This document shows positions 24,169 to 58,367 of a DNA stretch of 64,000 nt, one piece after another. The notes beneath the pieces are model-generated. The model did no database searches, had not been told where the DNA came from, and saw nothing but the letters and a program-made list of their open reading frames with translations. The position numbers and the translations under genes were made by a program. Source of the DNA: Escherichia coli phage Shin27; the sequence record LC788709.1. One strand, written 5' to 3'. Position 1 is the stretch's first letter, and every line of letters begins with the position of its first letter.

Positions 24169-25950
24169 TTAGGTTAGGCGTTGAACTGTTACACGTAGTC
24201 TTGGCAAGAAAACAGCTGCCGCTTCTGCAGCGTGAATGATAACACCCAACTCAACGTTGCCATTACCAAGGTTTTTAATAGTATAAATATATCCGTTCCT
24301 ACGGAAAGCAAACTCATCAGGCCTACTAGCCCAAGTCTGTGTATAACTATAGGAAGTTGTACTGTGATAAGGTACTAGATATCCAGGTGGCAGAGTAAGA
24401 ATCTGGTGGAATACACCATCACCAGCTGTATAACTTTGTTGACGTCTACCTTGTACCTGCCAAGCGCTACCGCCGTAAGTACGCACAGGCATTCCAGCAG
24501 TATTAAGATTACCCATAATAACTTCAGTAGTTAATATAACAGTAGAGTGAGCATTTGGTAATCCCAACCAAACTGTGGCCAAAGGTGTGTAGAAGTCACC
24601 AGCACCAGGGTAGGATGGAGTTATATCGTCCCCTACATAAGTACTTGCAACGTTGCCTGGGAATAACCTGAGTGGTACAGTACTAGGACTCCACACAGGT
24701 CCATGTTCATTACCAATGGAGTTGGTATTAGTATCTACATACCATTGTTTACCTACACCAAATTTATATAAGCTAATTTGAGAAGCTGCACCCCCATAGT
24801 TAACAGGAGACCACAACCCGCCATTACTAGAGCCGATAAATTCACATCGTGCAGTATTATCACCAAAAACTCCGGTATACGCAGCGTTATTACCAACATA
24901 CTCCATATCAGGGCGATAGCCTAAGTTTCCGAAAGCATTCTGGTTAATAAATTTATAGCCTGTATTTGGTAGGCTAACACCTTTAATAGTAAAATTAGAC
25001 GGAGATATTAGGATATCTGAACCGGTAAATGGATTACCAGAAACTCCCATACTACCATTAGAATAGCGCAGATTTAGCACATACCAAATAACCTTAGTTG
25101 GCGTAACGTTATACCAGTCCTGTACATATACCTTTCTAGCAGACTGAGCAGCCATATTAGAAGTAGAACCTCTACAAACATATATTTTTTCTGGGTATGC
25201 AGGAGATTGGTAAAGAACGTTTACGTTATCTGGTAGTACGCCTTTTTTACCTGCGAAGCCACGAATATTAGAACTACAAACATAAAACCAATCATGGCCT
25301 CTACCAGCAGAACCAATAGGCGCCTGCCAGTTAGGTTCCCAATAATCTGCGTTACCACCATCTAAAGGAACAGTAGAGACACCAGTTGGAAAACCCATAA
25401 GACTCCAGGCTCTGGCAATGGCTTCACCAGCAGAAACACCACCAGGTCTAAAGATCTGGAAACCAGAGGACTGTAGTAAACTGCCTCCAGAACCTTGCCT
25501 AGCAATAGATTCCTCATGACCAAGACCACCATTATAGATATAAGTACCATGAGCTAAACTATCACCGATCGCAAAAGCAGATGTTACAGATAATTCAGCA
25601 CCAGCACGTGGTGGGTCTTCAAAGAATGATAAGAACTGGCCAACCTGAGATTGAGTACCATTCAGAAATCCACGATGAGTACCGTTTATCTCAATAGCAG
25701 TTAATATAACTCTACCCGGATCATTGGATTTAATATTTATAATATCCCAAGGCATCTGAGTAACAAAGTATCCATTACCTGCATTACCTAGGGCTGCTTC
25801 ATAAGTCCCATCAACTAGGACAAATGGCATATCTGAGTGGAAGATACTATTAGTATTTGGAGAGTAGTGCTGATTTATATCACCACCATTAGCAGCGTTT
25901 AGAGATAATACAGTTTTACCATCACTAAATTTTCCTGCGAAAAAACTCAT
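24169..25950 (-). CDS. receptor-binding tail protein (T5 pb5/Oad-like)
   Basis: 593-aa Gly/Asn/Tyr-rich ORF at the end of the late module, divergent from a lipoprotein gene as for T5 oad-llp. Confidence 0.5.
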
Positions 25951-25975
25951 ACAATCTCCTTCTTTAAAAATGTAT

Positions 25976-26004
25976 TTGCTTAGATCCCTCTATTTTGCTA
26001 TAAT
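25976..26004 (+). promoter_or_regulatory. T5-type sigma70 promoter (TTGCTT-N17-TATAAT) for the llp-like gene
   Basis: consensus hexamers with 17-bp spacer, AT-rich leader ATATTTATAAATT, ~30 bp upstream of ATG at 26034. Confidence 0.6.
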
Positions 26005-26033
26005 ATATTTATAAATTAAACAGAGGAACGATT

Positions 26034-26300
26034 ATGAAAAAGTTACTAGCCATCGTAGTTGCAGCAGTAGTGTTGACGGGTTGTGTGCCAGCTCCCGAGC
26101 CATTTTGTAAGGCATATGTGAAGTCTTATGGTCATGTTGGTGAAGAACACTACGCTTTAGATATTCGAGAAGCACGTACTGTGGGCTACCGATTCCCTAA
26201 AACTCAGTTACGCACTAAGTTTGGGTGGTGGGATTTGTCACAGTTTGATCTCAAATATGGTGATTGCAAATTTAAACTAGAACAATCTGGTCACTTGTAA
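26034..26300 (+). CDS. llp: lipoprotein, Llp-like receptor-blocking / superinfection-exclusion candidate
   Basis: 88-aa ORF with signal peptide and lipobox LTGC; divergent from putative RBP gene; own sigma70 promoter. Confidence 0.55.
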   Translation: MKKLLAIVVAAVVLTGCVPAPEPFCKAYVKSYGHVGEEHYALDIREARTVGYRFPKTQLRTKFGWWDLSQFDLKYGDCKFKLEQSGHL

Positions 26301-26629
26301 TTAGTATAAAGTAAAAAGATCTCGAAGTAAACAAAAATTTTTATTTCTGGGATGAGGTACAGGTAGCAAACACAATGCAAGATGAAGAAAAGTCCTTTCA
26401 GGAACCTGTTAACTTTGAAATAAATCCCAGGAATAAAAAGCAATACATGATGCAATTGATGAAATCATTCAAGACGTCATAGAAGATACAATAGAAGACG
26501 TGATGGGAACATCCTTCTTACTAGAAGAATCCGGCTTCGACGAAGTAATGGATCTAATCGGGACAGTCGTAATGGTTCGTGCAATTGCTAGGGTATTCCA
26601 AATACCAAGACTATAGGAGAAGCAAAGAG

Positions 26630-26764
26630 ATGTCAGACGACAACAGAAGAAAGAACAGACGCGGGGAAGTGTACGAAAGTTGGATAAATAGTTTCGGATT
26701 CGGGACTGTGTTATTCTTTATCTTTGTACTCTTTTGGTTAGCAGCTATGGCGGGGTGGTTATAA
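26630..26764 (+). CDS. small membrane protein
   Basis: 44-aa ORF from ATG with AGGAG RBS, basic N-terminus and C-terminal TM helix; ORF track gives a longer GTG-start version from 26579. Confidence 0.35.
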   Translation: MSDDNRRKNRRGEVYESWINSFGFGTVLFFIFVLFWLAAMAGWL

Positions 26765-26868
26765 TGGAAGTAGTAATTATTACTTTACTAGTTGTGGTAA
26801 TTATAGGGCAGTGTATTTTAGATAACCACTTAGCTCGTATTGAACGTAAGCTGCGGGGAGATAAATAA
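26764..26868 (+). CDS. small membrane peptide
   Basis: 34-aa ORF, N-terminal TM helix, stop overlaps next start (TAATG). Confidence 0.3.
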   Translation: MEVVIITLLVVVIIGQCILDNHLARIERKLRGDK

Positions 26869-27062
26869 TGGATTGGTTAGGACTTATTACACTTGTAGTA
26901 TGGATTGTCTGGATTGTTGGATACATGACGTCACATCGTAATCGTATACAGAAGCTAGAGGATAAAGTCACCCAACTAAACATTAATATGGATAAGTTAC
27001 TGGACTCCCAACGTAATGATCGGGCGCGTATTCACCAACTTGAGAGGGAATTAGATGTTTAG
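26868..27062 (+). CDS. small membrane protein with coiled-coil tail
   Basis: 64-aa ORF, N-terminal TM, translationally coupled. Confidence 0.4.
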   Translation: MDWLGLITLVVWIVWIVGYMTSHRNRIQKLEDKVTQLNINMDKLLDSQRNDRARIHQLERELDV

Positions 27063-27300
27063 CTTTGTAGCTATCTTCATTATCGGAGTGCTTGCGGGGA
27101 TCTTCGGAACACTCGGGGCGATTAACAAGCATCGTGAATACGTTGCGGGAATATCGCGGGAGCTTTCGGAAAGGGAGCGGAGGTTTGCGGAGAAACGTGC
27201 GGAGTTTGAGCGGGAGTGGTCGGATGGATCTCGGGCGTCGCGGAGGAGATTTCGTATGTCAGAATCAGGAGACAAGCCGGTAGACCGGTGTTCCTCCTAA
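27055..27300 (+). CDS. small membrane protein with charged coiled-coil tail
   Basis: 81-aa ORF, N-terminal TM, R/E-rich C-terminus. Confidence 0.4.
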   Translation: MFSFVAIFIIGVLAGIFGTLGAINKHREYVAGISRELSERERRFAEKRAEFEREWSDGSRASRRRFRMSESGDKPVDRCSS

Positions 27301-27463
27301 GTTAGCGCTAATTACCAATTCTCGAAATCTCATAAGATTACACATGAAGGTGTGCCCAGAGGTTACCTAGATGAGAATGAGTCTCATTACCGCCCCGGTA
27401 CTTAGCAAGCTAATAGTCACACTATGTGATGATAACATAGTGTGACTATTTTATTTTTAATTG

Positions 27464-28198
27464 TTAGGCGACTTTTAATTTATCAATGAATTGTTGCGGG
27501 CTGCAACTATATTCTGCGCGTTCTTCCTCGGTCATACCTTCCCAACACATTTTTAAACGGTCGGCTAGGAATTGATAATCATTATCATCATCTAATGATT
27601 CATCAATAAAGGTTTCACCGATCAATGTTACGCCGATTGATAGGATATCATTAACGGCTTGAGCGTCCAGCGTTTTAAATCCAGCACTTGCCGCCGCCGA
27701 TAATACGCCTTTATGATCATCAATCATCGTAAAATCAGCGTTCGGATATAACTGTTTAAACAGTTCAAAGTAATAGCTTTTGTATACAGCGTCTTTACTA
27801 TGATATATTTCGCTAACCTTATCCGCTTCAAAGTATTTGTGTAATGTATCGCGAGAGAATACGCGGATATTGCTATTTCCGCGCCCTCGCAAGCCTTGTT
27901 TACGCAAATAAAAGTAATCGCTTTTAGACATAAGGCGCGCGGTACAAATAATATTTAAAGTATTTGCATCATTCATACATTGGCGCATATATTCAACCAA
28001 TGGCAATAAAGAATCCTGCATAATTAAATCATGTTTACAGGCTTCGCGTGAATACTTATTTAAATTTAAATTCCCGTTATCATCAAAGCAAGGCGCTACA
28101 CGGTGGAAAGAATTAATGATAGTTCCGTCTAAGTCCCAAATCATAACGCGGGAAATATGCGGGAAAGCGCGGGCAATATTCAAGGTTACTTGATTCAT
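27464..28198 (-). CDS. dmp: HAD-family 5'-deoxyribonucleotidase (T5 Dmp-like)
   Basis: 244-aa ORF with HAD motif I (IWDLDGTI); size and position next to A1-like gene. Confidence 0.65.
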   Translation of the reverse strand: MNQVTLNIARAFPHISRVMIWDLDGTIINSFHRVAPCFDDNGNLNLNKYSREACKHDLIMQDSLLPLVEYMRQCMNDANTLNIICTARLMSKSDYFYLRKQGLRGRGNSNIRVFSRDTLHKYFEADKVSEIYHSKDAVYKSYYFELFKQLYPNADFTMIDDHKGVLSAAASAGFKTLDAQAVNDILSIGVTLIGETFIDESLDDDNDYQFLADRLKMCWEGMTEEERAEYSCSPQQFIDKLKVA

Positions 28199-29041: not shown

Positions 29042-30706
29042 TTATGCAAAGAATTTACCGTTTTTGAAATCAATCAAAGTACGTTGCCCGTTTGCATAGG
29101 TAATTAAATGCGTTTGCGTCCAGCTTGACGCGCCCACGTTGTAGCCCATATCAAGGGAACCAGCAACGCCAGCGGTATAAACGCCGCCGTAAATGCTAGC
29201 CGTGTGAGTGTGACCAGTGTTAAGGCGTCCCAACTTTTTAAACTGCTTAGGATTGCCCCGACTGCCGTTAATGCCATTGTGACCATGTACGCCGCATTCA
29301 ATGCCAGCGATTTTAAAGGACTGGTCAGTAGTCAAAAAAATGGCGTTAAATTCGCATCCTGCAACGTTTCTAAGCGCATAATCTAACACGTTAAAGGTAT
29401 CATCCTTTTCAGCAATAGCGGCGTAAATCGCAGCGTTTAGACGGTGATACAGTTCCGCGTTTGCGGGATCATCTTTAATGTTTGCGTTACGATCATCTAA
29501 CCAGCGGGATAATGCTAAATCATGGTTAGATTCCACAATGATTGTTTGACTAAAATCACGTTCCATAGATTCTAATACGCGTCCAGTATCGATAAGATCA
29601 TCAATAACTTTATCACGTCCGGCGGCGTATTGTTTCGCAAGGAATACACCACTAGCGCGGTTATGATGGTTACGCGATGTAAAATCATGCACGTCATGAA
29701 TAAATTGATATTTCGGTTTAAGAATATCAAGCAAGCTGTTTTCACTAGCCCATGAAGCGACGGCGCAATCATCATCTAATTTTTCGGCGTGAATATCGCC
29801 ATATTGCAAGCCTAGAACATGATCGGACGTTTCAAAACATCCGGTAGGCATAGCGCAAACATTCAAATCATAGAACATTCCGCTTTCATCCATTGTTTCA
29901 ATCTGGCGAGCATAAAATTCGCCGTCGTCGTCGAACTCTACCAGCAAAGCGCCATAATTATGTAAAGCCTCAGCTTTTTGACCTGCTTTCTGCTGAATGT
30001 AGTTTTTAAGCGTAGCCGTTCCGGTTGAATACATACGGCACACTACTTCACCTTTTAACGCTGGCACACTTTCAGCGGTAATTTTAGCGTGACCAATTGC
30101 CAGACCTTCAATATTTAAAGCCGTGGCGGTTTCTGCGAATCCTGAAAGCGGGTAATCTGCCGTTGGTAAAACGTTAATTTCAGCCATGAAAGCAAAGCGG
30201 CGGTTATTTAAAAATACGTTTTTATCACAAACATATTTATCAAATGCGGGATCGTATTTAATACCGTTTGCCCCTTCCCCGTTCTGAAATCCGTTTTTGT
30301 TGTAAATGAATTTGCTAACAAGTAATTCAGCGCCGCAATATTCAGCGAATTTTTCCAGACTTGCTAAAAAGTTTTTATGCGGGAAAGTATTATTTTGAAT
30401 CGACGTTAGAATAAAACGGCGACCGGACTTAACTTCCCATTGCTCAACGGTGCTAGAAACAATTCCCGCCGCCTCTGGGCGATCATCGTTTTTAATCGCC
30501 TTTTCGGCTTTTGCCGCTTTCGGTTTCGCTGGTTTATTTGCTTCCAGCCAGTCACAAATTGCGGTCGAATGTTTCGGCGTACCATAAACAGCTTTTGAAA
30601 TATCGTCGCAAACTTCCAATTTAGTAGCGCGTAAACGCTTACCGTAGAAGTTAAAATCTGCGGCCATTTTCAAAATTTGAGCTTGTTTTTCTGCGGAAAT
30701 ATTCAT
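29042..30706 (-). CDS. A1: metallophosphoesterase, T5 A1-like (host DNA degradation / second-step transfer)
   Basis: 554-aa ORF with calcineurin-like motifs (GDIHAE, NHD, GHTHT); size matches T5 A1 as recalled. Confidence 0.65.
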   Translation of the reverse strand: MNISAEKQAQILKMAADFNFYGKRLRATKLEVCDDISKAVYGTPKHSTAICDWLEANKPAKPKAAKAEKAIKNDDRPEAAGIVSSTVEQWEVKSGRRFILTSIQNNTFPHKNFLASLEKFAEYCGAELLVSKFIYNKNGFQNGEGANGIKYDPAFDKYVCDKNVFLNNRRFAFMAEINVLPTADYPLSGFAETATALNIEGLAIGHAKITAESVPALKGEVVCRMYSTGTATLKNYIQQKAGQKAEALHNYGALLVEFDDDGEFYARQIETMDESGMFYDLNVCAMPTGCFETSDHVLGLQYGDIHAEKLDDDCAVASWASENSLLDILKPKYQFIHDVHDFTSRNHHNRASGVFLAKQYAAGRDKVIDDLIDTGRVLESMERDFSQTIIVESNHDLALSRWLDDRNANIKDDPANAELYHRLNAAIYAAIAEKDDTFNVLDYALRNVAGCEFNAIFLTTDQSFKIAGIECGVHGHNGINGSRGNPKQFKKLGRLNTGHTHTASIYGGVYTAGVAGSLDMGYNVGASSWTQTHLITYANGQRTLIDFKNGKFFA

Positions 30707-31100: not shown

Positions 31101-31517
31101 TTATTCACCTGCGGCCTGTTTTACTTCCTCCGCTACGCCTAACAATTGCGCTACGGCGTCCAGCGTTTCCAGTTTAGCACTTTCAAGGCTTGCCAGATCG
31201 TCGGCATCTTTTACGATACCTGAATCAATGGCGTGTTTAGCGATGACGCGCACATAGTGAGCTTTACGAATTGAGCTACCGCCGCCAACTTTGCGAGGTT
31301 TATCGCTTTTCTGATAGGCTTTTGCGCTTGTCAGTTTAGAACGTACAGACACCGGACTAGCAGCACCAACGGCGGCGGCAATTTCTTTCAGGCCGTCACT
31401 GTTAGCAAATTCACTTCCGCTTTTAGCGACCATTTCAGAATACATAGAAACAGCTTTTTCGGTGTTTTCTTCGTTCCAAGAGAATTTTGCGGTTTTTTCG
31501 GTTTTAACGTTAGACAT
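31101..31517 (-). CDS. hypothetical pre-early protein (possible A2 equivalent by size and position)
   Basis: 138-aa ORF immediately upstream of A1-like gene. Confidence 0.35.
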   Translation of the reverse strand: MSNVKTEKTAKFSWNEENTEKAVSMYSEMVAKSGSEFANSDGLKEIAAAVGAASPVSVRSKLTSAKAYQKSDKPRKVGGGSSIRKAHYVRVIAKHAIDSGIVKDADDLASLESAKLETLDAVAQLLGVAEEVKQAAGE

Positions 31518-31805: not shown

Positions 31806-32057
31806 TTATGCGATAGCTTGCCATTTATCATCTTTCTGAATGATTTTTACAACGTCGCCAGATTTAACACGGACGTTATAAATAGGCTTGCCGTGGTTAC
31901 TGCGTTCCGTTTCCGCATAGACCGCTTCAATCTTATCAAAGGGATCAAGCGCCGCACCTTTAATACGTTCAGCTTTTCCAGTTAATTCATCCGTTTTAGT
32001 AACGAAAGGAATAAAAACGGATTGACCTACTTTCGGTGCGGTGATAACGTTTTGCAT
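31806..32057 (-). CDS. hypothetical protein
   Basis: 83-aa ORF with GGAG RBS. Confidence 0.4.
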   Translation of the reverse strand: MQNVITAPKVGQSVFIPFVTKTDELTGKAERIKGAALDPFDKIEAVYAETERSNHGKPIYNVRVKSGDVVKIIQKDDKWQAIA

Positions 32058-32223
32058 TTTTAATACTCCGGTTTATTGGGGGATTATTCCACAATAGCGC
32101 CTCGATACTTTGAAACGCTATTAGATTATAATCCGCTAGGAGTTAGCCTAAACATTACCGTTTTTCCAAATTGTTAAAGAGCAGTTACTACGGGGAACAT
32201 CTTAAAACCTATCGGCTAGCGTG

Positions 32224-32433
32224 TCAATCGTTTTTTAAACTTTTTTCGATTTGATGGGAGTTATATAAATCAATCATTATATTACGCCACACCATTTCCA
32301 GCCCTTGTTGCTTGCCTTTCTTGTATTGCTTGAATCTGTATTTTACAGATCGTTGCGCTACTGTCAACAAATTTTTTGTTCTGCTATCAAGCGACTTGAT
32401 AGGCTTGCCAGTGATCAAAAGCGTTTGTTTCAT
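32224..32433 (-). CDS. hypothetical basic protein
   Basis: 69-aa ORF with AAGGA RBS, Lys/Arg-rich. Confidence 0.35.
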   Translation of the reverse strand: MKQTLLITGKPIKSLDSRTKNLLTVAQRSVKYRFKQYKKGKQQGLEMVWRNIMIDLYNSHQIEKSLKND

Positions 32434-32840
32434 ATCGTCGATTCCTTATAATATCTAAGTTTACCGCCGATAGGCTTTAAGATGTTCCCTAATTTTTAAA
32501 GAGCATGGCAGGGTTTTGAAAGGTCAAACAGACTGTCAATCGCTGTTATCCCCGCCGTGTAGTTCGTCATTGCCGCCCTACGTGATAAATAATAGGAGAA
32601 TACCGAGAAGGGCGCAAGCGTATTTTTGTAAAGAAACGTAAAGAAAACCACTACTCGCAAACGTCCAGCGGCGCATTAAATTTAATGAAACGGGCGCGCG
32701 AATAACACCAAAACAACCATTTTAGCAAGTAATTTTTTTCATTTATATTTGCTTTGCCATACTTGACAAAATCTAAAATCCTCGTGGTGAGGTTTTCTCG
32801 GTGTATCCCTTATGATTGCCTATCCTTTCCTTTGAGGCGC

Positions 32841-32867
32841 TTAGAATGCGTTACAGAGCGTTTTAGA
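32841..32867. repeat. 27-bp exact direct repeat, copy 1
   Basis: TTAGAATGCGTTACAGAGCGTTTTAGA identical to 37085-37111. Confidence 0.8.
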
Positions 32868-33185
32868 CCCTGTTAATAACTTATACAAAAAGCAAAAATG
32901 AAATTTAATGAGTTATCCACTTGATTTTTCAAAAAAGTATTTTCTGCTGTTATTTTTCATTGACAAATAAGTTTAGACGTGCATTTATTGGTTAGCAGAC
33001 TAATAATCGCTAGGAGGATAATCACGCTGGTGGATTGTAACAGCCGAAACAGTTAGCGGACTATTAATACTTTAAAAACCTATTAGCCAACTAACTATTT
33101 CATAATATATAATATACACATAAATTAATGAGAAATAATAACTATGAGAAACTATCGGGCTAAGTGAGAACCACTATCATTTAGG

Positions 33186-33255
33186 TTATGCACAAAGCTA
33201 TCCACAGCACAAAATAACTTGACGCAATAGGCGACGTTTTGGCGACTTATCCACA
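33186..33255 (+). promoter_or_regulatory. DnaA-box cluster
   Basis: TTATGCACA 33186-33194, cTATCCACA 33198-33206, TTATCCACA 33247-33255. Confidence 0.5.
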
Positions 33256-33295
33256 GACTTATATACAGGTTATCCTACTGTATAAATATACAGGG
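33241..33295. repeat. inverted-repeat arm L (DnaA box + LexA-like box)
   Basis: TTATCCACA at 33247-33255 and TACTGTATAAATATACAG at 33276-33293; reverse-complement partner at 37141-37205. Confidence 0.65.
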
Positions 33296-33543
33296 TAGAA
33301 TGGTAGCAGTAACAACCGCAATCAAATTTAAGCGGCCTAGAACGCGCTACACGGCGTTTTCTCACTGCTACCCTTATTATAATAAAGCCTTGTGTACGCT
33401 TACAGAGAGCTAGAAATAGAAAACGCGCGATTATCATAAAAACGGGCAGTAGGCAAGGAATAAAAAACCTTTTCTTTTTTTCTTGCCCCTAGCGAACAAT
33501 TATCTATATCATTCACTCACCGATTAACGAGGGAGACAAAGAA

Positions 33544-34545
33544 ATGTCTACTGTAAGAATTGCAGTACCAGCAAACGCAACTATTATTAAAGGTAGTTTG
33601 CGCAACCTGCTAGATGGTAGTAGTGCGGCAAGTATTCAGCACACCGCCGCAATGGTTGAAAAAATTCACGAGGATATTTTAGATAATAATGATACTCATT
33701 ATTCAGTCGATGATTTCACGCTATTACTAGACCAGACAAGGGCGCTAGTAATTTTCAACCGTGATTATCACATTTTCCGTAATAGTCAGGGAACTGATAT
33801 TGATTTTATCATTGTTGGTTATAGTGAGTCTCATAGTGGTTACATTGCGCGATTATATAACGTGCAAGAAAAAGAGCAGGTAACAGCAACAAAAGTAAAT
33901 AATATCAGATTGGATAGTGTCGGATCGTTATTAAATAGTATCTGGCGTGAATTATCATCCAGTTATAAAGGTGCTGATAGTGACGCAATCGAAACAACTG
34001 GCGTATTGTGCTTTGAACGCGCTAGCGGTAACATGTTGATCCCTAACGATTATTTAGAGTATGGGAATGAATCAAACGTTGCAAACGCTGGATTTACACT
34101 TTTACCGCTTGACAATGTAGCAAAACAGGCTGTAAACTCTCAAACTTCAAGCGCAAATGCGCAAACTACTGAAAATAAAGGAAATATTATGTCTAAAGTA
34201 TCTTCTATCGTTGCCGCTAATAAATCCGCCGTTGTTAACGCTGCTAAACTGGAAGCGGGTAAAATTGCACTGACTCAAATCACAAAAGTAGCGGCGAAAA
34301 AAGCGCCGTTTATGATTAAAGGTTATATCGATACGCCGATCGGTCGCGTAGTGATCGCTAACCTGTTAAGCGTAGCGGTTGACCAGTACGCCCCGACTAA
34401 TGCGAAAGCGAAAGCGGTAGCAGGCGCGGCAATGGAAGCGGCAATGCTGGAAATGGTACAGAGTTTCAATATTGCGGAAATGATCGATGAAATGGTAAAA
34501 GGTATTGACATTTCTACTTTTACCACTAACACCGAAAGTGAGTAG
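33544..34545 (+). CDS. hypothetical protein, first gene of plus-strand pre-early cassette
   Basis: 333-aa ORF with GAGGGAG RBS; Ala/Lys-rich C-terminal half; no recognisable motif. Confidence 0.55.
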   Translation: MSTVRIAVPANATIIKGSLRNLLDGSSAASIQHTAAMVEKIHEDILDNNDTHYSVDDFTLLLDQTRALVIFNRDYHIFRNSQGTDIDFIIVGYSESHSGYIARLYNVQEKEQVTATKVNNIRLDSVGSLLNSIWRELSSSYKGADSDAIETTGVLCFERASGNMLIPNDYLEYGNESNVANAGFTLLPLDNVAKQAVNSQTSSANAQTTENKGNIMSKVSSIVAANKSAVVNAAKLEAGKIALTQITKVAAKKAPFMIKGYIDTPIGRVVIANLLSVAVDQYAPTNAKAKAVAGAAMEAAMLEMVQSFNIAEMIDEMVKGIDISTFTTNTESE

Positions 34546-34612
34546 TAATAACTAGCGGGGATTATTTCCCCGCGTTACTATTTCCCTGTTAATTGTTAGG
34601 AGACTACTTATT

Positions 34613-34921
34613 ATGCAACTGAATCAAATCATGTTGACGCAATTAGCCGAAAAAATGCCGAATAGCCCCCATGTTAATTATTCGGACGATCAAAGCAATA
34701 TTCCTATATGGGAAAAACAAGGCCGTCCCTTTTTATGGGAACATGTAGAAAGCGCGAATAATTATCATGCTTTCTTTGATCGTGGTTATGGCTGGCTATG
34801 TATTTTTGTAGACGAAACTTTGCTGGATTATGGAATGGATGAAATAGTCCGTGATGACGTAATTTTCTTAAATAAAGGATTTTACAGTGTAGCAAATTCT
34901 CTTTATTTCCCTGCTAATTAA
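34613..34921 (+). CDS. hypothetical protein
   Basis: 102-aa ORF with AGGAG RBS. Confidence 0.5.
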   Translation: MQLNQIMLTQLAEKMPNSPHVNYSDDQSNIPIWEKQGRPFLWEHVESANNYHAFFDRGYGWLCIFVDETLLDYGMDEIVRDDVIFLNKGFYSVANSLYFPAN

Positions 34922-34934
34922 TAGGAGGCTAGTT

Positions 34935-35429
34935 ATGTCAGAAGAAAAATATGGCTTTTCACTAGAAAGTGTGAATGAAGCTAAACACGATATGATAGTT
35001 TTAGTTGATTGTCATACTGGCTATTGCGGGGAAGGCTGGACGGAGGAACATTTTGTTCCCGCTGGCTGTGATCTGGACGCTTTCGCAAACGAACACGCAT
35101 ATGATAATGCTTCTCGTTTCGGTAGTGATGGGGAAGAAGATGAAGAAACAGGGGAATGGATTGAAAATGATAATGTTTATGCGAGTATTTATCATTATCA
35201 ATTGAGTAAATCCGGTATTTATGTAAATGGCGGCGATCCTATTAATACCGTTATGAAACTAATTATTAAACACGGTGGCGCGGAAATAATTGGTAACAAG
35301 GCGTTATTATATGCAAATCGATTAAAACAGCTTGTTTATATTCCTGATAATTCCCGTTGGGATGAATATGCCGTTTTACAGAAAGAACTAAAACGCTGTT
35401 TCGGTGTGGAAGCATTAGAAATAGTCTAA
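34935..35429 (+). CDS. hypothetical acidic protein (DNA-mimic / anti-restriction candidate)
   Basis: 164-aa ORF with TAGGAGG RBS; strongly acidic segment DGEEDEETGEWIENDN. Confidence 0.5.
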   Translation: MSEEKYGFSLESVNEAKHDMIVLVDCHTGYCGEGWTEEHFVPAGCDLDAFANEHAYDNASRFGSDGEEDEETGEWIENDNVYASIYHYQLSKSGIYVNGGDPINTVMKLIIKHGGAEIIGNKALLYANRLKQLVYIPDNSRWDEYAVLQKELKRCFGVEALEIV

Positions 35430-35536
35430 TGTAAAGTTTTGTAAAGGTCGCCTATTATGGCGACCTTTTTTGTTATAATGCCTTTACACCGAAACGGTGG
35501 GTTGAAAATTTTCCCTGATTTCTAGGAGGCGTTAAA

Positions 35537-35764
35537 ATGGTACATTCATCATCTTCTGCAATTTTTAACGGTATGGAATGGGTATCCGTTCCCGCTATTG
35601 TCAGCGTTATGGTTTCTGAGTTCGGCATAGGTAAAACTTATGTTACCATTCAGGGGCTTTACGACAATGACAAGATTGACCAGCAAACCGCCGGATTTTT
35701 GCTGGATGAATTGAAAGCTAACCATTGCACTAAAAAGCAAGCGGCAAAAATTGTTTTAATGTAA
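35537..35764 (+). CDS. hypothetical protein
   Basis: 75-aa ORF with TAGGAGG RBS. Confidence 0.45.
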   Translation: MVHSSSSAIFNGMEWVSVPAIVSVMVSEFGIGKTYVTIQGLYDNDKIDQQTAGFLLDELKANHCTKKQAAKIVLM

Positions 35765-35810
35765 TTAATAAAGGGGGTATATTATCCCCTAATTTCTAGG
35801 AGCTAATAAA

Positions 35811-35960
35811 ATGGTTATTTTTCGATCTATTCTAGCTAGTATCTTGGGCGCTATTTTATCACTGTTTGTAATAGCTTTCGGCGTTAACGTGGTTATTATT
35901 GGAGCAGGTATCGCTGGGTTTTCTTACTTGTTAGGCTGTATGACTGGTAAAGGGGAATAA
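35811..35960 (+). CDS. small membrane peptide
   Basis: 49-aa hydrophobic ORF with TAGGAG RBS; below ORF-track size cutoff. Confidence 0.35.
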   Translation: MVIFRSILASILGAILSLFVIAFGVNVVIIGAGIAGFSYLLGCMTGKGE

Positions 35961-35962
35961 AA

Positions 35963-36175
35963 ATGTTAAAGAATGTTTCCCTTGCCCGTTCTAAAGGTTT
36001 TAAGCTGGTGGATGTTAACACGTTCGAGCGTCCAGATTGTAAAATCGAATATGTAGCACGCAACAAAAACGCTTTCCGTGTTACTGAAAAGAAATTTGAC
36101 AAGCGCGGAAATTTGGTAGCCGAAACGGTTAAACACTTTGCTACTTTTTACGCTGCGTTTCGTGGGGTATTATGA
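35963..36175 (+). CDS. hypothetical protein
   Basis: 70-aa ORF tightly packed after preceding ORF. Confidence 0.45.
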   Translation: MLKNVSLARSKGFKLVDVNTFERPDCKIEYVARNKNAFRVTEKKFDKRGNLVAETVKHFATFYAAFRGVL

Positions 36176-36273
36176 GATCCTTATATATTGCTCTAGCGTT
36201 TGCTACCGTTGGCGTTGTTTGCTCATTCGCTGCATTTGTTCTAAAAATGTACCTGATATTTTCCCAGCTTTAG
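36172..36273 (+). CDS. small membrane peptide
   Basis: 33-aa hydrophobic ORF overlapping previous stop (ATGA). Confidence 0.25.
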   Translation: MRSLYIALAFATVGVVCSFAAFVLKMYLIFSQL

Positions 36274-36284
36274 GAGCTTGACAA

Positions 36285-36632
36285 ATGGTTATTTATGAGG
36301 GTAATCGCTTTGTTACTAATTGCCGTCCGGCATTATTAGCAAACTATTTAAATCAGCTTTCCCCTGTTTATAAAGGCGTGGTTAACATCTATGAAGGCAA
36401 AGCGCACTATAGAATTAATGCCGTTGTCGCTCGCGAGCTTGCCTTTCAGTTTCTTACTTTTAACTCATGCGATATTCAGGTTATGGGTGAGTCTTTGATT
36501 GCAGAAAATGAAGATGAATTTATTAACATTTTCCGCAAAGTATGTACAGAGCGCCTGATTATGAAAGGCGCATATATTCAATCAACCGCTGATAGTATTG
36601 AAACAGCGTTTCGAAAAATTGTAAATGAATAG
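36285..36632 (+). CDS. hypothetical protein
   Basis: 115-aa ORF with TAGGAG RBS. Confidence 0.5.
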   Translation: MVIYEGNRFVTNCRPALLANYLNQLSPVYKGVVNIYEGKAHYRINAVVARELAFQFLTFNSCDIQVMGESLIAENEDEFINIFRKVCTERLIMKGAYIQSTADSIETAFRKIVNE

Positions 36633-36755
36633 CTGGTGGCGTAAAACGCAATCCCATAAATCTAATAATACCGCTGGGAAACATTCCCAGCGTTTACGAT
36701 TTGGGAACGGCTTCACAATGTTAATAATAATCATTCTCATTCTAGGAGCAATGGC

Positions 36756-36995
36756 ATGGCTGTAAGAATTTTACGATATGTAGAACGTAAAGAAACCGAT
36801 ATTATGCAGCATCATTTAACTGATGGGCAATACGCGCAATTTTTAGAAATGCAGAAAAGCGGAGCTAGTACGGCGGCGCTAGGGGCGTGGATCAATTCAG
36901 TTTCAACGTGTACGCATTTTGATTCATACGGGTATACGCCAGCCGAAACCGTCCAGATCTTTGACGACTACGAGAAGGAATACATAGCAGACTAA
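36756..36995 (+). CDS. hypothetical protein, last gene of cassette
   Basis: 79-aa ORF with TAGGAG RBS. Confidence 0.45.
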   Translation: MAVRILRYVERKETDIMQHHLTDGQYAQFLEMQKSGASTAALGAWINSVSTCTHFDSYGYTPAETVQIFDDYEKEYIAD

Positions 36996-37084
36996 TAATA
37001 GCGGGGCGCAACTATCGGCCCCGCCTTTTCTGCCTGCAAACAAATTTCCCCTTATTAAAATACCTCCTCCAAAAATAAACGCGT

Positions 37085-37111
37085 TAGAATGCGTTACAGA
37101 GCGTTTTAGAG
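37085..37111. repeat. 27-bp exact direct repeat, copy 2
   Basis: identical to 32841-32867. Confidence 0.8.
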
Positions 37112-37140
37112 CTATATTAGAGTTATTCACTACGTAGGAA

Positions 37141-37205
37141 TACTGTATATTTATACAGTAGAATAACCTGTGGATAAGTCAGTGGATAACGCCTCAAAAT
37201 CGCTA
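37141..37205. repeat. inverted-repeat arm R (LexA-like box + DnaA boxes)
   Basis: TACTGTATATTTATACAGTA at 37141-37160, TGTGGATAA at 37169-37177. Confidence 0.65.
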
Positions 37206-37251
37206 GGATTTTGTCAAGTCAAATCGTGCTGTTAATAAACCTGTGGATAAC
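37169..37251 (-). promoter_or_regulatory. DnaA-box cluster
   Basis: reverse complement of TTATCCACA at 37169-37177 and 37243-37251, near-match at 37181-37189. Confidence 0.5.
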
Positions 37252-37269
37252 TTAAATAGCAGTGTTTCT

Positions 37270-37420
37270 CACTTCGCTTTCTAAATGCGAATCATTCTCA
37301 TTATGCGACTCATTCGTATTCAATTCTGTAAATGATAATCATTCCCATTCCACTTTCTAAATGCGAGTAGTTCTCATTCGCATTCAACTTCTCAAATGCG
37401 AATCAATCTCATTATCAGTT
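37270..37420. repeat. three copies of ~25-bp motif (CTTTCTAAATGCGAATCATTCTCATT family)
   Basis: copies near 37277, 37344, 37385. Confidence 0.6.
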
Positions 37421-37463
37421 GCATTTCGGCAGGCAGGGCATTTTCTATTTGCCCTGCGCTTTT

Positions 37464-38065
37464 GTGCAAATCCGACATCTGCCCCCACGGATTACGTGCC
37501 AGCGTGCATGTGCGAATCCGACAATTTTTGGTAGTGTGCAAATCCGATGGGAAATATTTTTTATATGTGCGAATCCGACAATGAATTTTCCTAAAAACTC
37601 CAGCAATCCGCAACTGCGATGCAATCCAGCTGGATTTACTAGAGTATGCGCAAATCCGACATGAGTTTATTTGTGCAAAACCGACAAGATTTTTGTGACT
37701 TCGATGAGAGGGTGTGTGATTGTGAGGGTTTGGGGAGAAGTGCGAATCCGATGAGATTTTGGGAGGAACTACGGAAGGAGCAGCGGTGATGGTGCTTTAG
37801 CACCGGTTTGCTGCATTTTTGAGGATAATGCGGGATGTTTTGGCTAGAATTGAGATTAGGGGAGATAAAGCGAAATTTTATTAGCAAAATGGGGCAAAAT
37901 CGCTTGACAAGTGAAAATTCCTGTGGCTCTAAAAAACTCAGGCAAATATGGGCCTTCGGCCCGAAATAATGCTGCTATTTTCAGTGTTCCTAAAAACTTT
38001 GGAGACTCCTATCAATGTGCAAATCCGACCATAAATTTCTAGAAACACAGTGTGCAAATCCGATA
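37464..38065. repeat. dispersed array of ~10 copies of 14-bp motif GTGCRAATCCGAYR
   Basis: copies at 37464, 37510, 37538, 37567, 37648, 37673, 37740, 38017, 38052, degenerate at ~37603; irregular spacing. Confidence 0.75.
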
Positions 38066-38230
38066 GCAATTTCCAGAAATGTGTTTTGGAAAAATGTCTC
38101 CTAGAAATAACCGCCCTCCCTATAACCGCCCTGTATTAAACCGCCTATTGCTGGAGTTTCTAGGAACATGAAAACCGCCTGAGTTGGCGAGAGTTTTCCT
38201 AGAAACTTAGGAGTCTACTAGAAAGTGTTG
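38030..38230. repeat. cluster of TTCTAGAA-type palindromes and AACCGCC repeats
   Basis: TTTCTAGAAAC, TCCTAGAAA, TTTCTAGGAAC, TTCCTAGAAAC plus four AACCGCC copies at 38100-38170. Confidence 0.6.
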
Positions 38231-38528
38231 TGCTATCCTAGCAGATGAGCGGCAACAGGTGTATCATCTTGAACATTAATTTATCTATTCAACAGTATTA
38301 GTTTTTATATAAGTATAAGATCCCCAGGGGATTGTGAGAGATGCTCCACCCCTGGGATACGAATTGCGTGAGATGGTACAAAACTTCTGAAGATTTCCCT
38401 AGCCCTCCGACAAGCTACGGGGGAAATAGAAGTTTCCCATCCACCATCCGTATCCGGGTGGATCTCTTTATTCTATGTTATTTCATAGAGTTATTATAAC
38501 ATGCAGAAATCATAACGTCAAGTAGAGT

Positions 38529-39419
38529 TTATTCATCGAACATGAGATTTCCTTTCATCCCCATCTCCGCATACTCCATGAGTTCTCCTAGGGATCTCAC
38601 AGGGTAATCTACTTTACTGAAGTTATCATAGATCTTACATGAACTCTCGTACAACTCGTTAGGTATCTGCAATTTGTTATCAGTTAGCTTCTCATAACGT
38701 GTAGAAGATTTTGTACCTTCAAACAGAACTGCAATAACTGCGGCGATTTGTTTGGTAAGATCATCTGCTCCTAGAATTATTCTATTAATAGCAATCGTTA
38801 CTTCATGCTTAGGTTTCACAGGTGGAAGGATAGGCTTGAGATCCTTAGGTAAAGGTTCTGTTCCTAGGAATCCTTCTTTTGTGCGGAACCAATAATTATC
38901 TAGATCAGATATTGTCTTAGACTTATTCCATATAGTGAAGCAAGGTTTATTTCCTTCACGATCTCTGTATTCACGAACTGGAAGATAATGATCAGGGAAT
39001 GAGTTGAGTGCATCATGCATTGGTGAGCCTGTCTTTTTAAATGACAAACCGTACAACTCATTATAATTCATAACTTCATCTTCATAAACATGGAAATCTT
39101 TATATGCTGGAAGATTAAACCATTCCTGAAGTGAATGAACTGCAAAACGTTGTGCCCAAGCATGCATCACAAGAACTCTGTACTCTTTTACTTCATCTTT
39201 TGGAGAAGTACCTCTAACTGTTCTAGCTGACCGAATACAGAACATCTCAACAACACGTCTCTCGTTTAAAGAAAGCTCAGAGTAACAACGTTCATGGCAA
39301 CCTTCTAGCATTTCTAGAAGTTCACGTAGTTTCTCTACATCGACCGGTGGAAAAGGTCTCTCTTCCACCGCGAATTTACCAACTACACCTTTCGGCTTTC
39401 TATTACTATAAAATCCCAT
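38529..39419 (-). CDS. hypothetical early protein
   Basis: 296-aa ORF, last gene before the repeat region. Confidence 0.5.
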   Translation of the reverse strand: MGFYSNRKPKGVVGKFAVEERPFPPVDVEKLRELLEMLEGCHERCYSELSLNERRVVEMFCIRSARTVRGTSPKDEVKEYRVLVMHAWAQRFAVHSLQEWFNLPAYKDFHVYEDEVMNYNELYGLSFKKTGSPMHDALNSFPDHYLPVREYRDREGNKPCFTIWNKSKTISDLDNYWFRTKEGFLGTEPLPKDLKPILPPVKPKHEVTIAINRIILGADDLTKQIAAVIAVLFEGTKSSTRYEKLTDNKLQIPNELYESSCKIYDNFSKVDYPVRSLGELMEYAEMGMKGNLMFDE

Positions 39420-56820: not shown

Positions 56821-56896
56821 TGGTAGTTAGTAGTGGATTTGAACCACTGTAGTCGCTCCGTATGAAGGAGGTGCATAACCACTCTGCCAACTAACT
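56821..56896 (-). tRNA. tRNA-Met(CAT): tRNA with CAT anticodon (Met / initiator / Ile2 not distinguishable)
   Basis: hand fold: 7-bp acceptor, T-loop TTCAAAT, anticodon loop TTCATAC, encoded CCA. Confidence 0.6.
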
Positions 56897-56902
56897 ATAA
56901 TT

Positions 56903-56978
56903 TGGTACTCCGACTTGGGATCGAACCAAGATTTGACGATTATCGGTCGCCTGTTCTAACCGTTTGAACTATCGGAGC
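56903..56978 (-). tRNA. tRNA-Ile(GAT): tRNA-Ile (GAT) candidate
   Basis: hand fold: acceptor GCTCCGA/TCGGAGT, T-loop TTCGATC, anticodon loop CCGATAA (C at position 33), CCA encoded. Confidence 0.5.
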
Positions 56979-56979
56979 A

Positions 56980-57273
56980 TTACATCATTTCGTCTAAGTA
57001 AGAAGTATACTGGTATTTAGCTTCTCCAGTTTTATCTACTTCGACTTCTGTTCTAGGTACTTTTCGTACCAGACCGTGAATCATCTTGTACTGAATAGAC
57101 TTAGATGGTTCGTGATCTTTTGGAAATACTTGTTTAACCGTTACTACTTTGAAGCCTTCACGAGGTGTTAGCACAACAACTTGATCACCTTCTTTTATTT
57201 TCCAAGACTCAGGAAATTCGTAAGTGTAGCGTTGACCACCCGTTTGGAACACGACAGAAAGATAACGTTTCAT
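56980..57273 (-). CDS. hypothetical protein
   Basis: 97-aa ORF between tRNA genes, downstream of a T5-type promoter. Confidence 0.4.
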   Translation of the reverse strand: MKRYLSVVFQTGGQRYTYEFPESWKIKEGDQVVVLTPREGFKVVTVKQVFPKDHEPSKSIQYKMIHGLVRKVPRTEVEVDKTGEAKYQYTSYLDEMM

Positions 57274-57303
57274 TTGGTTTCCCTCTCATTAATTTATGTA
57301 AAT

Positions 57304-57332
57304 ATTATAACAAGAAATAAGAGAGAAGGCAA
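57304..57332 (-). promoter_or_regulatory. T5-type early promoter (TTGCCT-N17-TATAAT)
   Basis: upstream of 56980..57273 and the first tRNAs. Confidence 0.5.
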
Positions 57333-57347
57333 ATGAATTTTTAAATT

Positions 57348-57422
57348 TGGTGCTCCCACCAGGAATCGAACCCGGTTCAGATGCTTACAAGGCAACTGCA
57401 TCGCCAGCAATGCTTTAGGAGC
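57348..57422 (-). tRNA. tRNA-Thr(TGT): tRNA-Thr (TGT)
   Basis: hand fold: acceptor GCTCCTA/TGGGAGC, D-stem GCAT/ATGC, anticodon loop CTTGTAA, T-loop TTCGATT. Confidence 0.6.
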
Positions 57423-57589
57423 AATAAACCCGTTATTTCAACGGAATTTCTTTTTCAAATACAGGAGACTTATCAGACATTACTGTCATAGCCAACTGCT
57501 GTAGAAATTCGAATGAGAGTTTTAAACGTTCTTCACCCAACTCAACCTCAACACACTTCATTTGCTTATCAACCTTTAGCTTTAGATTA

Positions 57590-57811
57590 TCAGCCCTCTT
57601 CGGGTTCTCTTTGCTCAGCTATTGCTAGCCAGTCTGGTAAAAGAAACTTAGTACGAAATTCTTCATATGTTTCTTCTGGATGAAAGCTATAGCCTTGCTT
57701 TTCATCATTTAATAAAACCGAACCGTCTTCCTGTTCATAAGCTCGGTATGTTTCACCAATAATTAAAACTCGTCTATTGGGGTTTTTATTACGAAACTCA
57801 AAAACGTCCAT
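57590..57811 (-). CDS. hypothetical protein
   Basis: 73-aa ORF. Confidence 0.35.
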   Translation of the reverse strand: MDVFEFRNKNPNRRVLIIGETYRAYEQEDGSVLLNDEKQGYSFHPEETYEEFRTKFLLPDWLAIAEQREPEEG

Positions 57812-57826
57812 AACGTTTCCTTAAGT

Positions 57827-57901
57827 TGGTGCGGGATACGAGAGTCGAACTCGTGTCTACTGGTTGGAAGCCAGTTATTCTAGCCACTGAACTAATCACG
57901 C
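57827..57901 (-). tRNA. tRNA-Gly(TCC): tRNA-Gly (TCC)
   Basis: hand fold: anticodon arm ACTGG-CTTCCAA-CCAGT, T-loop TTCGACT, CCA encoded; one acceptor mismatch. Confidence 0.6.
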
Positions 57902-57907
57902 ATAAAT

Positions 57908-57983: not shown

Positions 57984-57989
57984 AGTATT

Positions 57990-58362: not shown

Positions 58363-58367
58363 ATAAG

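What the first reader, a model, noticed from the sequence alone, without database searches (positions are those of the whole stretch)
33241..37205. Repeat-bracketed plus-strand cassette of about nine small unknown genes in the pre-early region
Genes 33544-36995 are tightly packed, each with a strong TAGGAGG-type RBS, and all run opposite to every flanking gene. None carries a motif I can assign. The cassette is bracketed by an imperfect inverted repeat (33241-33295 / 37141-37205) and an exact 27-bp direct repeat (32841 / 37085). In T5-like phages the first DNA injected carries host-takeover and anti-restriction functions, and most of these are still unassigned, so this is the most likely place for an undescribed anti-defence or host-shutoff module. 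The bracketing repeats also suggest a swappable module.
Basis: partly seen in the sequence, partly recalled or inferred. Interest (0 to 1): 0.8.

Follow-up and report, generated by a model that had tools for sequence, protein, structure and literature searches.

The report
Known T5-type rightward pre-early operon
This is the already described rightward "pre-early" gene block of a T5-like phage, sitting between two conserved DnaA-box inverted repeats tied to the DNA-injection stop; several of its small genes still have no known function.

Summary
Eight solid and two possible plus-strand genes (33544-36995) form the only sizeable plus-strand block in the window. A 135-nt inverted repeat (33159-33293 / 37143-37277) and an exact 27-bp direct repeat (32841 / 37084) bracket them. 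It is not an undescribed module. The window matches E. coli phage Shin27, an Epseptimavirus-like T5 relative. The block is the rightward operon of the first-step-transfer (FST) region: T5.011-012-013-014-015 orthologues plus accessory genes (102, 164, 79 aa; two possible tiny membrane ORFs). The inverted repeat is Davison's IRC-spacer-IRD / IRD'-spacer-IRC', carrying eight DnaA-type boxes. It occurs in the same place and orientation in all 33 related loci examined, so it belongs to the conserved injection-stop architecture rather than marking a mobile cassette. In T5, 011, 013 and 015 are toxic, 015 is an Ung-dependent abasic-site nickase, and hegG-017 can be deleted. What varies is gene-level content at three slots. 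The 102-aa gene is gained or lost as one "33-nt leader + ORF" unit. The 164-aa acidic protein has a confident predicted fold with no known relative. An anti-defence role for the accessory genes is possible but untested; Epseptimaviruses are reported to be restriction-sensitive.

The parts
32841..32867 (.). 27-bp repeat, upstream copy (TTAGAATGCGTTACAGAGCGTTTTAGA), in the non-coding region between the hdi-like gene and the left inverted-repeat arm
   Evidence: exact match, 0 expected by chance. An upstream copy was found only in Epseptimavirus-like loci, where it differs from the downstream copy by 3-8 nt. The two copies are identical only in this window.
33159..33293 (.). Left arm of the 135-nt inverted repeat, equivalent to T5 IRC-spacer-IRD (Repeat Region 2). 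It carries paired DnaA-type boxes: TTATGCACA-aag-CTATCCACA and TTATCCACA-gac-TTATATACA
   Evidence: I1; consensus DnaA boxes at 33186 and 33247; alignment with T5 6098-6228; present in 33 of 33 loci.
33337..33363 (.). Degenerate third copy (70%) of the 27-bp motif, at the position of T5 IRB'
   Evidence: D5; T5 IRB/IRB' at 5275-5311 / 6260-6296; alignment.
33483..33512 (+). Sigma-70-type promoter for the rightward operon (-35 TTGCCC, 18-nt spacer, -10 TATCAT), homologous to the promoter annotated upstream of T5.011
   Evidence: scan hit; the last 70 nt or so before the ATG are nearly identical to T5 6411-6494. One search gives the T5 promoter annotation. Annor et al. list the promoter upstream of 011 as experimentally characterised.
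33544..34545 (+). T5.011 orthologue (333 aa, '37 kD pre-early protein', Pfam DUF7566): a variable N-terminal alpha/beta domain and a near-invariant Ala-rich helical C-terminal domain
34555..34573 (.). GC-rich hairpin directly after 011 (GCGGGGATTATTTCCCCGC)
   Evidence: conserved in SIY1lw and L006.
34579..34611 (+). 33-nt leader repeat, copy 1 (TATTTCCCTGTTAATTGTTAGGAGACTACTTAT), containing the RBS of the 102-aa gene
   Evidence: (D8, 85% to copy 2).
34613..34921 (+). Accessory gene w102 (102 aa, pI 4.5; EPS7_0008 type), absent from T5
   Evidence: (phrog_16959). Only 2 clusters among 5.8 billion proteins. Present in 80 of 50,697 phage records. Coding-like substitution pattern.
34904..34936 (+). 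33-nt leader repeat, copy 2, containing the RBS of the 164-aa gene
   Evidence: (D8).
34935..35429 (+). Accessory gene w164 (164 aa, net charge -17; EPS7_0009 type), absent from T5 but found across Demerecviridae, including a My1 protein
35443..35468 (+). Intrinsic terminator (10-bp stem followed by a T run), homologous to the T5 terminator annotated right after T5.011
   Evidence: T5 7534-7559.
35537..35764 (+). T5.012 orthologue (75 aa)
   Evidence: phrog_5145; 72% identity.
35811..35960 (+). T5.013 orthologue (49 aa, hydrophobic membrane protein)
   Evidence: 62% identity; maximum KD 2.65. T5 013 causes lysis-like toxicity.
35963..36175 (+). T5.014 orthologue (70 aa, pI 10.1), the most conserved gene of the block. 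It carries the PHROG/RefSeq label 'Ung-dependent AP endonuclease', which is probably misplaced
   Evidence: phrog_4227; 93% identity. Strong third-position bias, 392 of 484 substitutions.
36172..36273 (+). Possible 33-aa single-TM ORF (its ATG overlaps the 014 stop codon) in variable slot 2
   Evidence: Too few homologues to test whether it is coding.
36285..36632 (+). T5.015 orthologue (115 aa), the probable Ung-dependent abasic-site nickase
   Evidence: phrog_4379; 88% identity over 112 aa; UniRef name of T5.015.
36625..36765 (+). Possible 46-aa basic single-TM ORF overlapping both neighbours, in variable slot 3
   Evidence: Substitutions by codon position 23/8/35; intact in 7 of 7 homologues.
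36756..36995 (+). Accessory gene w79 (79 aa, pI 4.8), occupying the place of T5.016/017
   Evidence: (phrog_12351). Present in 90 phage records. Coding-like.
37001..37031 (+). Terminator-like hairpin after the last gene (GCGGGGC, 10-nt loop, GCCCCGC, then CTTTTCT)
   Evidence: Read directly. The scanner missed it because the loop exceeds 8 nt. T5 annotates a terminator at the equivalent place.
37084..37110 (.). 27-bp repeat, downstream copy; it always lies 59 bp before the right arm
   Evidence: position conserved in 33 of 33 loci, 0-7 mismatches.
37143..37277 (.). [quoted passage not shown]
   Evidence: (boxes at 37169 and 37242).
37253..38069 (.). Rest of the non-coding injection-stop repeat region: DRE-like 50-nt repeats (37253-37413) and at least 8 copies of TGTGCRAATCCGA (37462-38069). 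By homology the terminal repeat ends near 37929
   Evidence: D1, D2, D4; same families in T5; iss annotations; terminal-repeat end mapped from SIY1lw.

Best explanation
The region is the rightward-transcribed half of the first-step-transfer (pre-early) DNA of a T5-like phage; the window matches E. coli phage Shin27 (exact protein matches), with an Epseptimavirus-type gene set.

Shown: the segment lies inside the roughly 10-kb terminal repeat next to dmp-A1-A2-007-hdi. It is read divergently from a sigma-70 promoter that is conserved with T5's promoter upstream of 011. It encodes a fixed backbone 011-012-013-014-015, plus accessory genes in three variable slots. It is flanked by the conserved IRC-spacer-IRD / IRD'-spacer-IRC' inverted repeat, which carries eight DnaA-type boxes.

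Inferred from T5, BF23 and Bas33 experiments: host RNA polymerase transcribes these genes during the pause after about 8% of the genome has entered. The products act on the host. 011 disturbs the nucleoid, 013 damages the membrane, and 015 binds Ung and nicks the abasic sites Ung creates. The block is dispensable in laboratory hosts, so it acts as an accessory host-takeover and fitness module.

The inverted repeats are not cassette borders. They are cis elements of the injection-stop architecture; Davison's still untested proposal is that they bind membrane-associated DnaA at two points.

Gene content changes one gene at a time. Each accessory gene travels with a roughly 33-nt leader/RBS repeat, and recombination between leader copies adds or removes one 'leader + ORF' unit.
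For: Identity and context: annotated relatives and T5; orthology; 100% match to Shin27; terminal-repeat end at about 37929.

Operon signals.

Backbone and slots: (33 loci, 26 distinct cassettes, spacing between arms 2833-4060 bp).

Prevalence among 50,697 phage records: 011 in 508, w164 in 338, w79 in 90, w102 in 80.

Inverted repeat and DnaA boxes: (4 of the window's 8 consensus boxes lie in 270 bp, where about 0.03 are expected). The literature description matches.

Functions in T5. Pre-early transcription and proteins in the Tequintavirus Bas33.

Leader-mediated indel: D8; the SIY1lw 011-to-w164 junction is a crossover inside the leader; a leader precedes w164/w102 in every motif-positive cassette; L006 carries a diverged copy.
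Against: No experiment exists for this phage or for any Epseptimavirus pre-early gene; timing and toxicity are extrapolated from T5 and Bas33. 011 is only 57% identical to T5.011, in its N-terminal domain especially, and five of the ten ORFs have no T5 counterpart. Structure prediction and fold searches gave no function for 011 or w164. The role of DnaA binding in the injection stop is a hypothesis that has not been tested. No promoter for 012-w79 downstream of the strong terminator at 35443-35468 was identified, so transcription of the distal genes (read-through or an unrecognised promoter) is unresolved.
Confidence: 0.9

Rival explanations
1. One reading: the block, or at least its accessory genes w102, w164 and w79, is an anti-defence module, for example anti-restriction, anti-RecBCD or an inhibitor of some other immunity system.
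For: It lies in the DNA that enters first. T5's restriction and CRISPR insensitivity is attributed to an unidentified pre-early function. The accessory genes are patchily distributed. They are small and acidic, with net charges of -8, -17 and -6, as many known anti-defence proteins are. w164 has a confident but unmatched fold. [quoted passage not shown]
Against: No similarity to any known family in Pfam, PHROGs, NCBIfam, PADLOC, or PDB sequence or fold searches. Epseptimaviruses carrying these genes, such as Bas28 (IrmaTschudi) with w164, are reported as generally R-M sensitive, whereas T5, which lacks them, is resistant. So they are not the broad anti-restriction factor. The backbone genes already have other phenotypes: toxicity and Ung-dependent nicking.
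Confidence: 0.3
2. The inverted and direct repeats delimit a mobile or invertible cassette that is exchanged as a unit.
For: A long inverted repeat and an exact 27-bp direct repeat flank the genes. According to Davison, Type 2 and 3 T5-like phages carry unrelated, oppositely oriented genes in this region.
Against: No recombinase or transposase is present. The arms are only 75% complementary. Both arms are present at fixed positions, and A2 lies upstream on the opposite strand, in 33 of 33 loci, with no inversion. Left arms match other left arms better than their own right arm. The 011-015 backbone and its order are constant. The upstream 27-mer lies 318 bp outside the left arm and is diverged or absent in most relatives.
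Confidence: 0.03
3. The two inverted-repeat arms, together with their DnaA boxes, form a two-point membrane or DnaA anchor that loops out the cassette and sets the injection stop (Davison's model). On this view the gene block is simply whatever sits inside the loop.
For: Eight DnaA-type boxes occur in pairs 3 bp apart at the same positions in both arms, as Davison describes for 25 phages. The arms are more conserved than the genes between them, and the spacing between arms is free to vary from 2.8 to 4.1 kb. Davison cites an old report of a second FST fragment ending near IRC.
Against: No DnaA-binding or mutational data exist. The model is a preprint hypothesis. Type 4 phages are reported to lack the left arm.
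Confidence: 0.35

Closest known systems
Bacteriophage T5 pre-early region T5.011-T5.017, between Repeat Regions 2 and 3 of the left terminal repeat (NC_005859 6495-9157)
   Same: Same position next to dmp/A1/A2/hdi and same divergent orientation. The promoter and the post-011 terminator are homologous. Orthologues of 011, 012, 013, 014 and 015 occur in the same order (57-93% identity). The flanking IRC-spacer-IRD / IRD'-spacer-IRC' repeats and the downstream iss repeats are the same.
   Different: There is no hegG insertion. Two extra genes (w102, w164) sit between 011 and its terminator. Tiny ORFs w33 and w46 are present. w79 replaces T5.016/017. The 011 N-terminal domain is strongly diverged.
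Epseptimavirus FST regions (EPS7, S114, S126, SIY1lw, Bas28 IrmaTschudi)
   Same: 92-95% DNA identity over 5.7-6 kb, and the same accessory genes (EPS7_0008 to EPS7_0012 types).
   Different: Gene-level indels, for example SIY1lw lacks w102 and 013. Only this window has the two 27-bp repeat copies identical.
T5.015, the Ung-dependent abasic-site nickase (Mahata et al. 2021, PMC8201957)
   Same: Window ORF 36285-36632 is 88% identical over 112 of 115 residues.
   Different: Its activity has not been tested in this phage. Public annotation (PHROG 4227, RefSeq) places the name on the neighbouring 70-aa gene.
Early 'host-takeover / anti-defence' gene clusters of other virulent phages, such as the T7 class I genes with Ocr, or the T4 immediate-early small ORFs (comparison from general knowledge)
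   Same: The first-expressed DNA is packed with small, often toxic or acidic, dispensable and patchily distributed genes.
   Different: No sequence or fold homology was found. Here expression is gated physically by two-step DNA transfer, and the block lies between conserved cis-acting DnaA-box repeats.

Membership tests
T5-like rightward pre-early (FST) operon | Lies inside the terminal repeat / first-step-transfer DNA next to dmp, A1 and A2 | tested here: met
   Searches give the annotations of S114, SIY1lw and T5. In the window, A2-like is at 31101-31517, A1-like at 29042-30706 and dmp-like at 27464-28198. The terminal-repeat end maps to about 37929.
T5-like rightward pre-early (FST) operon | Transcribed divergently from the dmp-A1-A2 unit, from the promoter upstream of 011 | tested here: met
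   Strand layout. The promoter sequence is conserved with the T5 annotated promoter. Actual transcription was not measured.
T5-like rightward pre-early (FST) operon | Orthologues of T5.011-T5.015 in conserved order | tested here: met
   (57, 72, 62, 93 and 88% identity). (same order in 26 distinct cassettes).
T5-like rightward pre-early (FST) operon | Flanked by IRC-spacer-IRD and IRD'-spacer-IRC' carrying about 8 DnaA or DnaA* boxes in pairs 3 bp apart | tested here: met
   The description is in Davison 2020.
T5-like rightward pre-early (FST) operon | Expressed before second-step transfer (pre-early timing) | not testable with these tools
   Inferred from T5 and Bas33 data.
T5.015-type Ung-dependent AP-site nickase | Sequence orthology to T5.015 (114 aa) | tested here: met
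   (88% identity over 112 residues for 36285-36632). (UniRef names T5.015 a DNA-(apurinic or apyrimidinic site) endonuclease).
T5.015-type Ung-dependent AP-site nickase | Binds Ung, nicks abasic sites, and shows ung-dependent toxicity | not testable with these tools
   Biochemistry is available only for T5.
Known anti-defence proteins (Ocr/ArdA-type DNA mimics and other described inhibitors) | Sequence or fold similarity to a described inhibitor family | tested here: not met
   [not shown]
Known anti-defence proteins (Ocr/ArdA-type DNA mimics and other described inhibitors) | Protects the phage from a defined defence system | not testable with these tools
   Indirect evidence only: Epseptimaviruses with these genes are generally R-M sensitive.
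Mobile or invertible element bounded by terminal inverted repeats | Encodes a transposase or recombinase | tested here: not met
Mobile or invertible element bounded by terminal inverted repeats | Variable location or orientation among related genomes | tested here: not met
   same location and orientation in 33 of 33 loci.
DNA N6-adenine methyltransferase (label on many 011 homologues in UniRef and GenBank) | Methyltransferase domain or Rossmann-type MTase fold | tested here: not met
   [not shown]

The most novel reading that the evidence does not exclude
One or more of the accessory genes is a new inhibitor of a host defence or host factor. The main candidate is w164: net charge -17, a confident predicted fold with no match, found across Demerecviridae including phages whose remaining cassette is otherwise replaced, with an optional zinc-ribbon insert. 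The acidic ORFans w102 and w79 are secondary candidates. On this reading the 33-nt leader repeats are the recombination handles by which T5-like phages shuffle such genes one at a time within the first-injected DNA.
Probability: 0.3. Interest if true: 0.55.

Novelty: already known. Interest (0 to 1): 0.22.

Why it matters
The functions of T5-type pre-early genes, including the factor behind restriction and CRISPR insensitivity and the mechanism of the injection stop, are long-standing open questions. This locus is where the answers lie. The finding adds little that is not already in the T5 literature, because the operon, its repeats and its variability are all described and under active study.

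This re-analysis adds four practical points:
- A gene-by-gene map of which parts are backbone and which are accessory in the Epseptimavirus version.
- Evidence that accessory genes move as "leader + ORF" units.
- A shortlist of candidates for anti-defence screens (w164, w102, w79).
- Two probable annotation errors that are spreading through databases.

Tried and rejected
1. Pfam, PHROGs, NCBIfam and PADLOC scans of all ten ORFs. These returned only DUF7566, function-less PHROGs and the nickase label. The sub-threshold NCBIfam hits (CbiM, RatA, DrpB; E 0.04-0.07) were dismissed as noise.
2. PDB sequence searches for the 70-aa and 115-aa proteins: nothing.
5. Rfam scan of 32000-38600. Two sub-threshold sRNA hits fell on the terminator hairpin and were rejected.
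6. The AFDB50 fold library was unavailable.
7. I tried to settle which T5 protein Mahata et al. called 015 from primers or residue numbers. The supplement is not held, so this rests on locus tags and the UniRef name only.
8. Davison 2015 (PMC4743489) is not held.
9. The transposon / invertible-segment idea was rejected.
10. The 37-aa ORF at 33300-33413 was rejected as a gene, since substitutions are concentrated at codon position 2.

Full report
**What is in the sequence**

Between 33544 and 36995 the plus strand carries eight clear ORFs of 333, 102, 164, 75, 49, 70, 115 and 79 aa. Two small overlapping ORFs of 33 and 46 aa are also present. All other substantial genes in the 64-kb window lie on the minus strand, and GC skew is positive only over 33-38 kb. 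Six of the eight solid genes have a TAGGAG[G/A/C] ribosome-binding site.

The inverted repeat is real and longer than reported: 33159-33293 / 37143-37277, 135 nt, 75% complementary. The 27-bp direct repeat is exact at 32841 and 37084, with none expected by chance. The first gene is not small. The inverted repeat extends about 80 nt further. The second direct-repeat copy starts at 37084.

**Identity of the genome and the locus**

The 6-kb region is 92-95% identical to Epseptimavirus-type T5-like phages such as S126, IrmaTschudi, Wa28 and EPS7. Several proteins match E. coli phage Shin27 exactly.

In annotated relatives the same block lies inside the roughly 10-kb terminal repeat. It sits immediately right of dmp, A1, A2, 007 and hdi, and left of the "injection stop signal". 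Mapping the terminal-repeat end annotated in SIY1lw places it near window position 37929.

**Gene-by-gene orthology with T5**

| Window ORF | T5 counterpart | Identity |
|---|---|---|
| 333 aa | T5.011 | 57% |
| 75 aa | T5.012 | 72% |
| 49 aa | T5.013 | 62% |
| 70 aa | T5.014 | 93% |
| 115 aa | T5.015 | 88% |
| 102, 164, 33, 46, 79 aa | none | - |

The 333-aa protein is Pfam DUF7566.

The last 70 nt or so upstream of 011 are almost identical to T5's annotated promoter, which Annor et al. list as experimentally characterised. T5's terminator after 011 is homologous to the window's strong terminator after the 164-aa gene. So w102 and w164 are insertions between 011 and its own terminator.

**The bracketing repeats are a known, conserved cis architecture**

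Aligned with T5, the two arms are IRC-spacer-IRD (Repeat Region 2) and IRD'-spacer-IRC' (the start of Repeat Region 3 and the iss). Four of the window's eight consensus DnaA boxes (TTWTNCACA) fall within these 270 bp. Each is paired with a variant box 3 bp away. This is exactly the eight-box arrangement Davison described for 25 T5-like phages.

I examined 33 loci: T5, S114, SIY1lw and 30 IMG/VR loci. Both arms are present in every one, and A2 lies upstream on the opposite strand. There are no inversions. The window's left arm is 77-97% identical to the other loci's left arms but only about 75% to any right arm. The similarity is therefore old and maintained, not the product of recent mobility.

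The downstream 27-mer always lies 59 bp before the right arm. The upstream copy is detectable only in Epseptimavirus-like loci, where it differs from the downstream copy by 3-8 nt. Only this phage has identical copies, which is most simply a short conversion patch. So the repeats do not show that the cassette moves as a unit. According to Davison, whole-region replacement is seen only in distant Type 2 and 3 phages.

**What does vary**

The 33 loci yield 26 distinct cassettes, with 2833-4060 bp between the arms. All keep the order 011-012-013-014-015, although 012 or 013 is missing from a few cassettes such as SIY1lw. They differ at three slots:

- Between 011 and 012: nothing, w164, or w102 + w164.
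- Between 014 and 015: alternative tiny hydrophobic ORFs.
- After 015: w46 + w79, T5.016 + T5.017, or other small ORFs.

Across 50,697 phage records, 011 is found in 508, w164 in 338, w79 in 90 and w102 in 80.

A 33-nt leader containing the RBS (TATTTCCCTGyTAATT..TAGGAG...) precedes both w102 and w164. In SIY1lw, which lacks w102, the 011-to-w164 junction is exactly a crossover within this leader. In every motif-positive cassette the leader sits directly upstream of w164 or w102; one w164-carrying cassette (L006) has only a diverged copy. I infer that accessory genes are gained and lost as "leader + ORF" units by recombination between leader copies.

**Function**

From the literature on T5:

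- 011, 013 and 015 are toxic when expressed alone.
- 011 disorganises the nucleoid.
- 013, a two-TM protein, gives lysis-like damage.
- 015 binds Ung and nicks the abasic sites it generates.
- A T5 mutant with hegG-017 deleted (built in a background already lacking the leftward non-essential genes) is viable with small plaques.

In the Tequintavirus Bas33, pre-early transcripts and ten pre-early proteins are detected when infection is arrested after first-step transfer. By orthology, the window's block is a dispensable host-takeover operon.

**Anti-defence hypothesis**

It remains possible for the accessory genes, which are acidic, patchily distributed and carried on first-injected DNA. Nothing tested here supports it. 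The BF23 study reports that Epseptimaviruses (Bas26-29, close relatives carrying w164) are generally sensitive to R-M systems, whereas Tequintaviruses, which include T5 without these genes, are resistant. These genes are therefore not the broad anti-restriction factor. A narrower role is not excluded, given for example the unexplained resistance of Epseptimaviruses to Eco29kI and Esp1396I.

**Verdict**

The locus is the known T5-type rightward pre-early operon, flanked by the known iss-associated DnaA-box inverted repeats. Novelty is low ("already known"). The residual interest lies in the uncharacterised accessory genes and in the still unproven role of the repeats.

Noticed in passing
window 35963-36175 versus 36285-36632 (T5.014 and T5.015 orthologues): The name 'endonuclease nicking abasic sites generated by host Ung' (PHROG 4227, many RefSeq records) sits on the 70-aa T5.014-type protein, which is called 'ORF015' in another T5 record. 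Mahata et al. used T5.0xx locus tags, and UniRef names the 114-aa T5.015 as the AP endonuclease. This looks like an off-by-one annotation error that is spreading; the real nickase orthologue is probably 36285-36632.
   Followed up: partly
[not shown]
   Followed up: yes
window 32841-32867 and 37084-37110: The two 27-bp copies are identical only in this phage. In close relatives they differ by 3-8 nt, and the sequence shared here is the downstream type (identical to L006's downstream copy). This suggests a short gene-conversion patch between sites 4.2 kb apart. The motif contains GCGTT twice, 10 bp apart, and may be a protein-binding site.
   Followed up: partly
window 33544-34545; Klebsiella phage records H62 and H63: Only the C-terminal 98 residues or so of 011 (236-333, about 60% identity) are found in Klebsiella T5-like phages. 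Within Escherichia and Salmonella phages the C-terminal 130 residues are nearly invariant while the N-terminal domain diverges to well under 50% identity. 011 appears to be a two-module protein with an exchangeable N-terminal domain.
   Followed up: partly
w164 homologues P0084, P0087, P0088, P0090 (alignment A2, columns 72-95): Some w164 homologues carry a CPxC...CxxC zinc-ribbon insert in the acidic linker that the window's copy lacks.
   Followed up: partly
window 32193-32216 / 32466-32489: A 24-nt, 96% complementary inverted repeat tightly flanks the hdi-like gene (32224-32433). It corresponds to T5 IRA/IRA' around T5.008, where the strong promoters P-H22 and P-D/E20 lie.
   Followed up: no
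window about 25950-27460 and about 37929: The record is a collapsed-terminal-repeat assembly. Late structural genes (up to 25950) abut the dmp end of the pre-early region, so the physical left genome end should lie near 27.35 kb, and the terminal repeat should span about 27.35-37.93 kb.
   Followed up: partly
window 35443-35540: No recognisable promoter was found between the strong terminator after w164 and the 012 start codon. How 012-w79 are transcribed (read-through or an atypical promoter) is unclear.
   Followed up: no
window 56821-63335: A cluster of 21 tRNA genes on the minus strand, typical of T5-like early regions.
   Followed up: no
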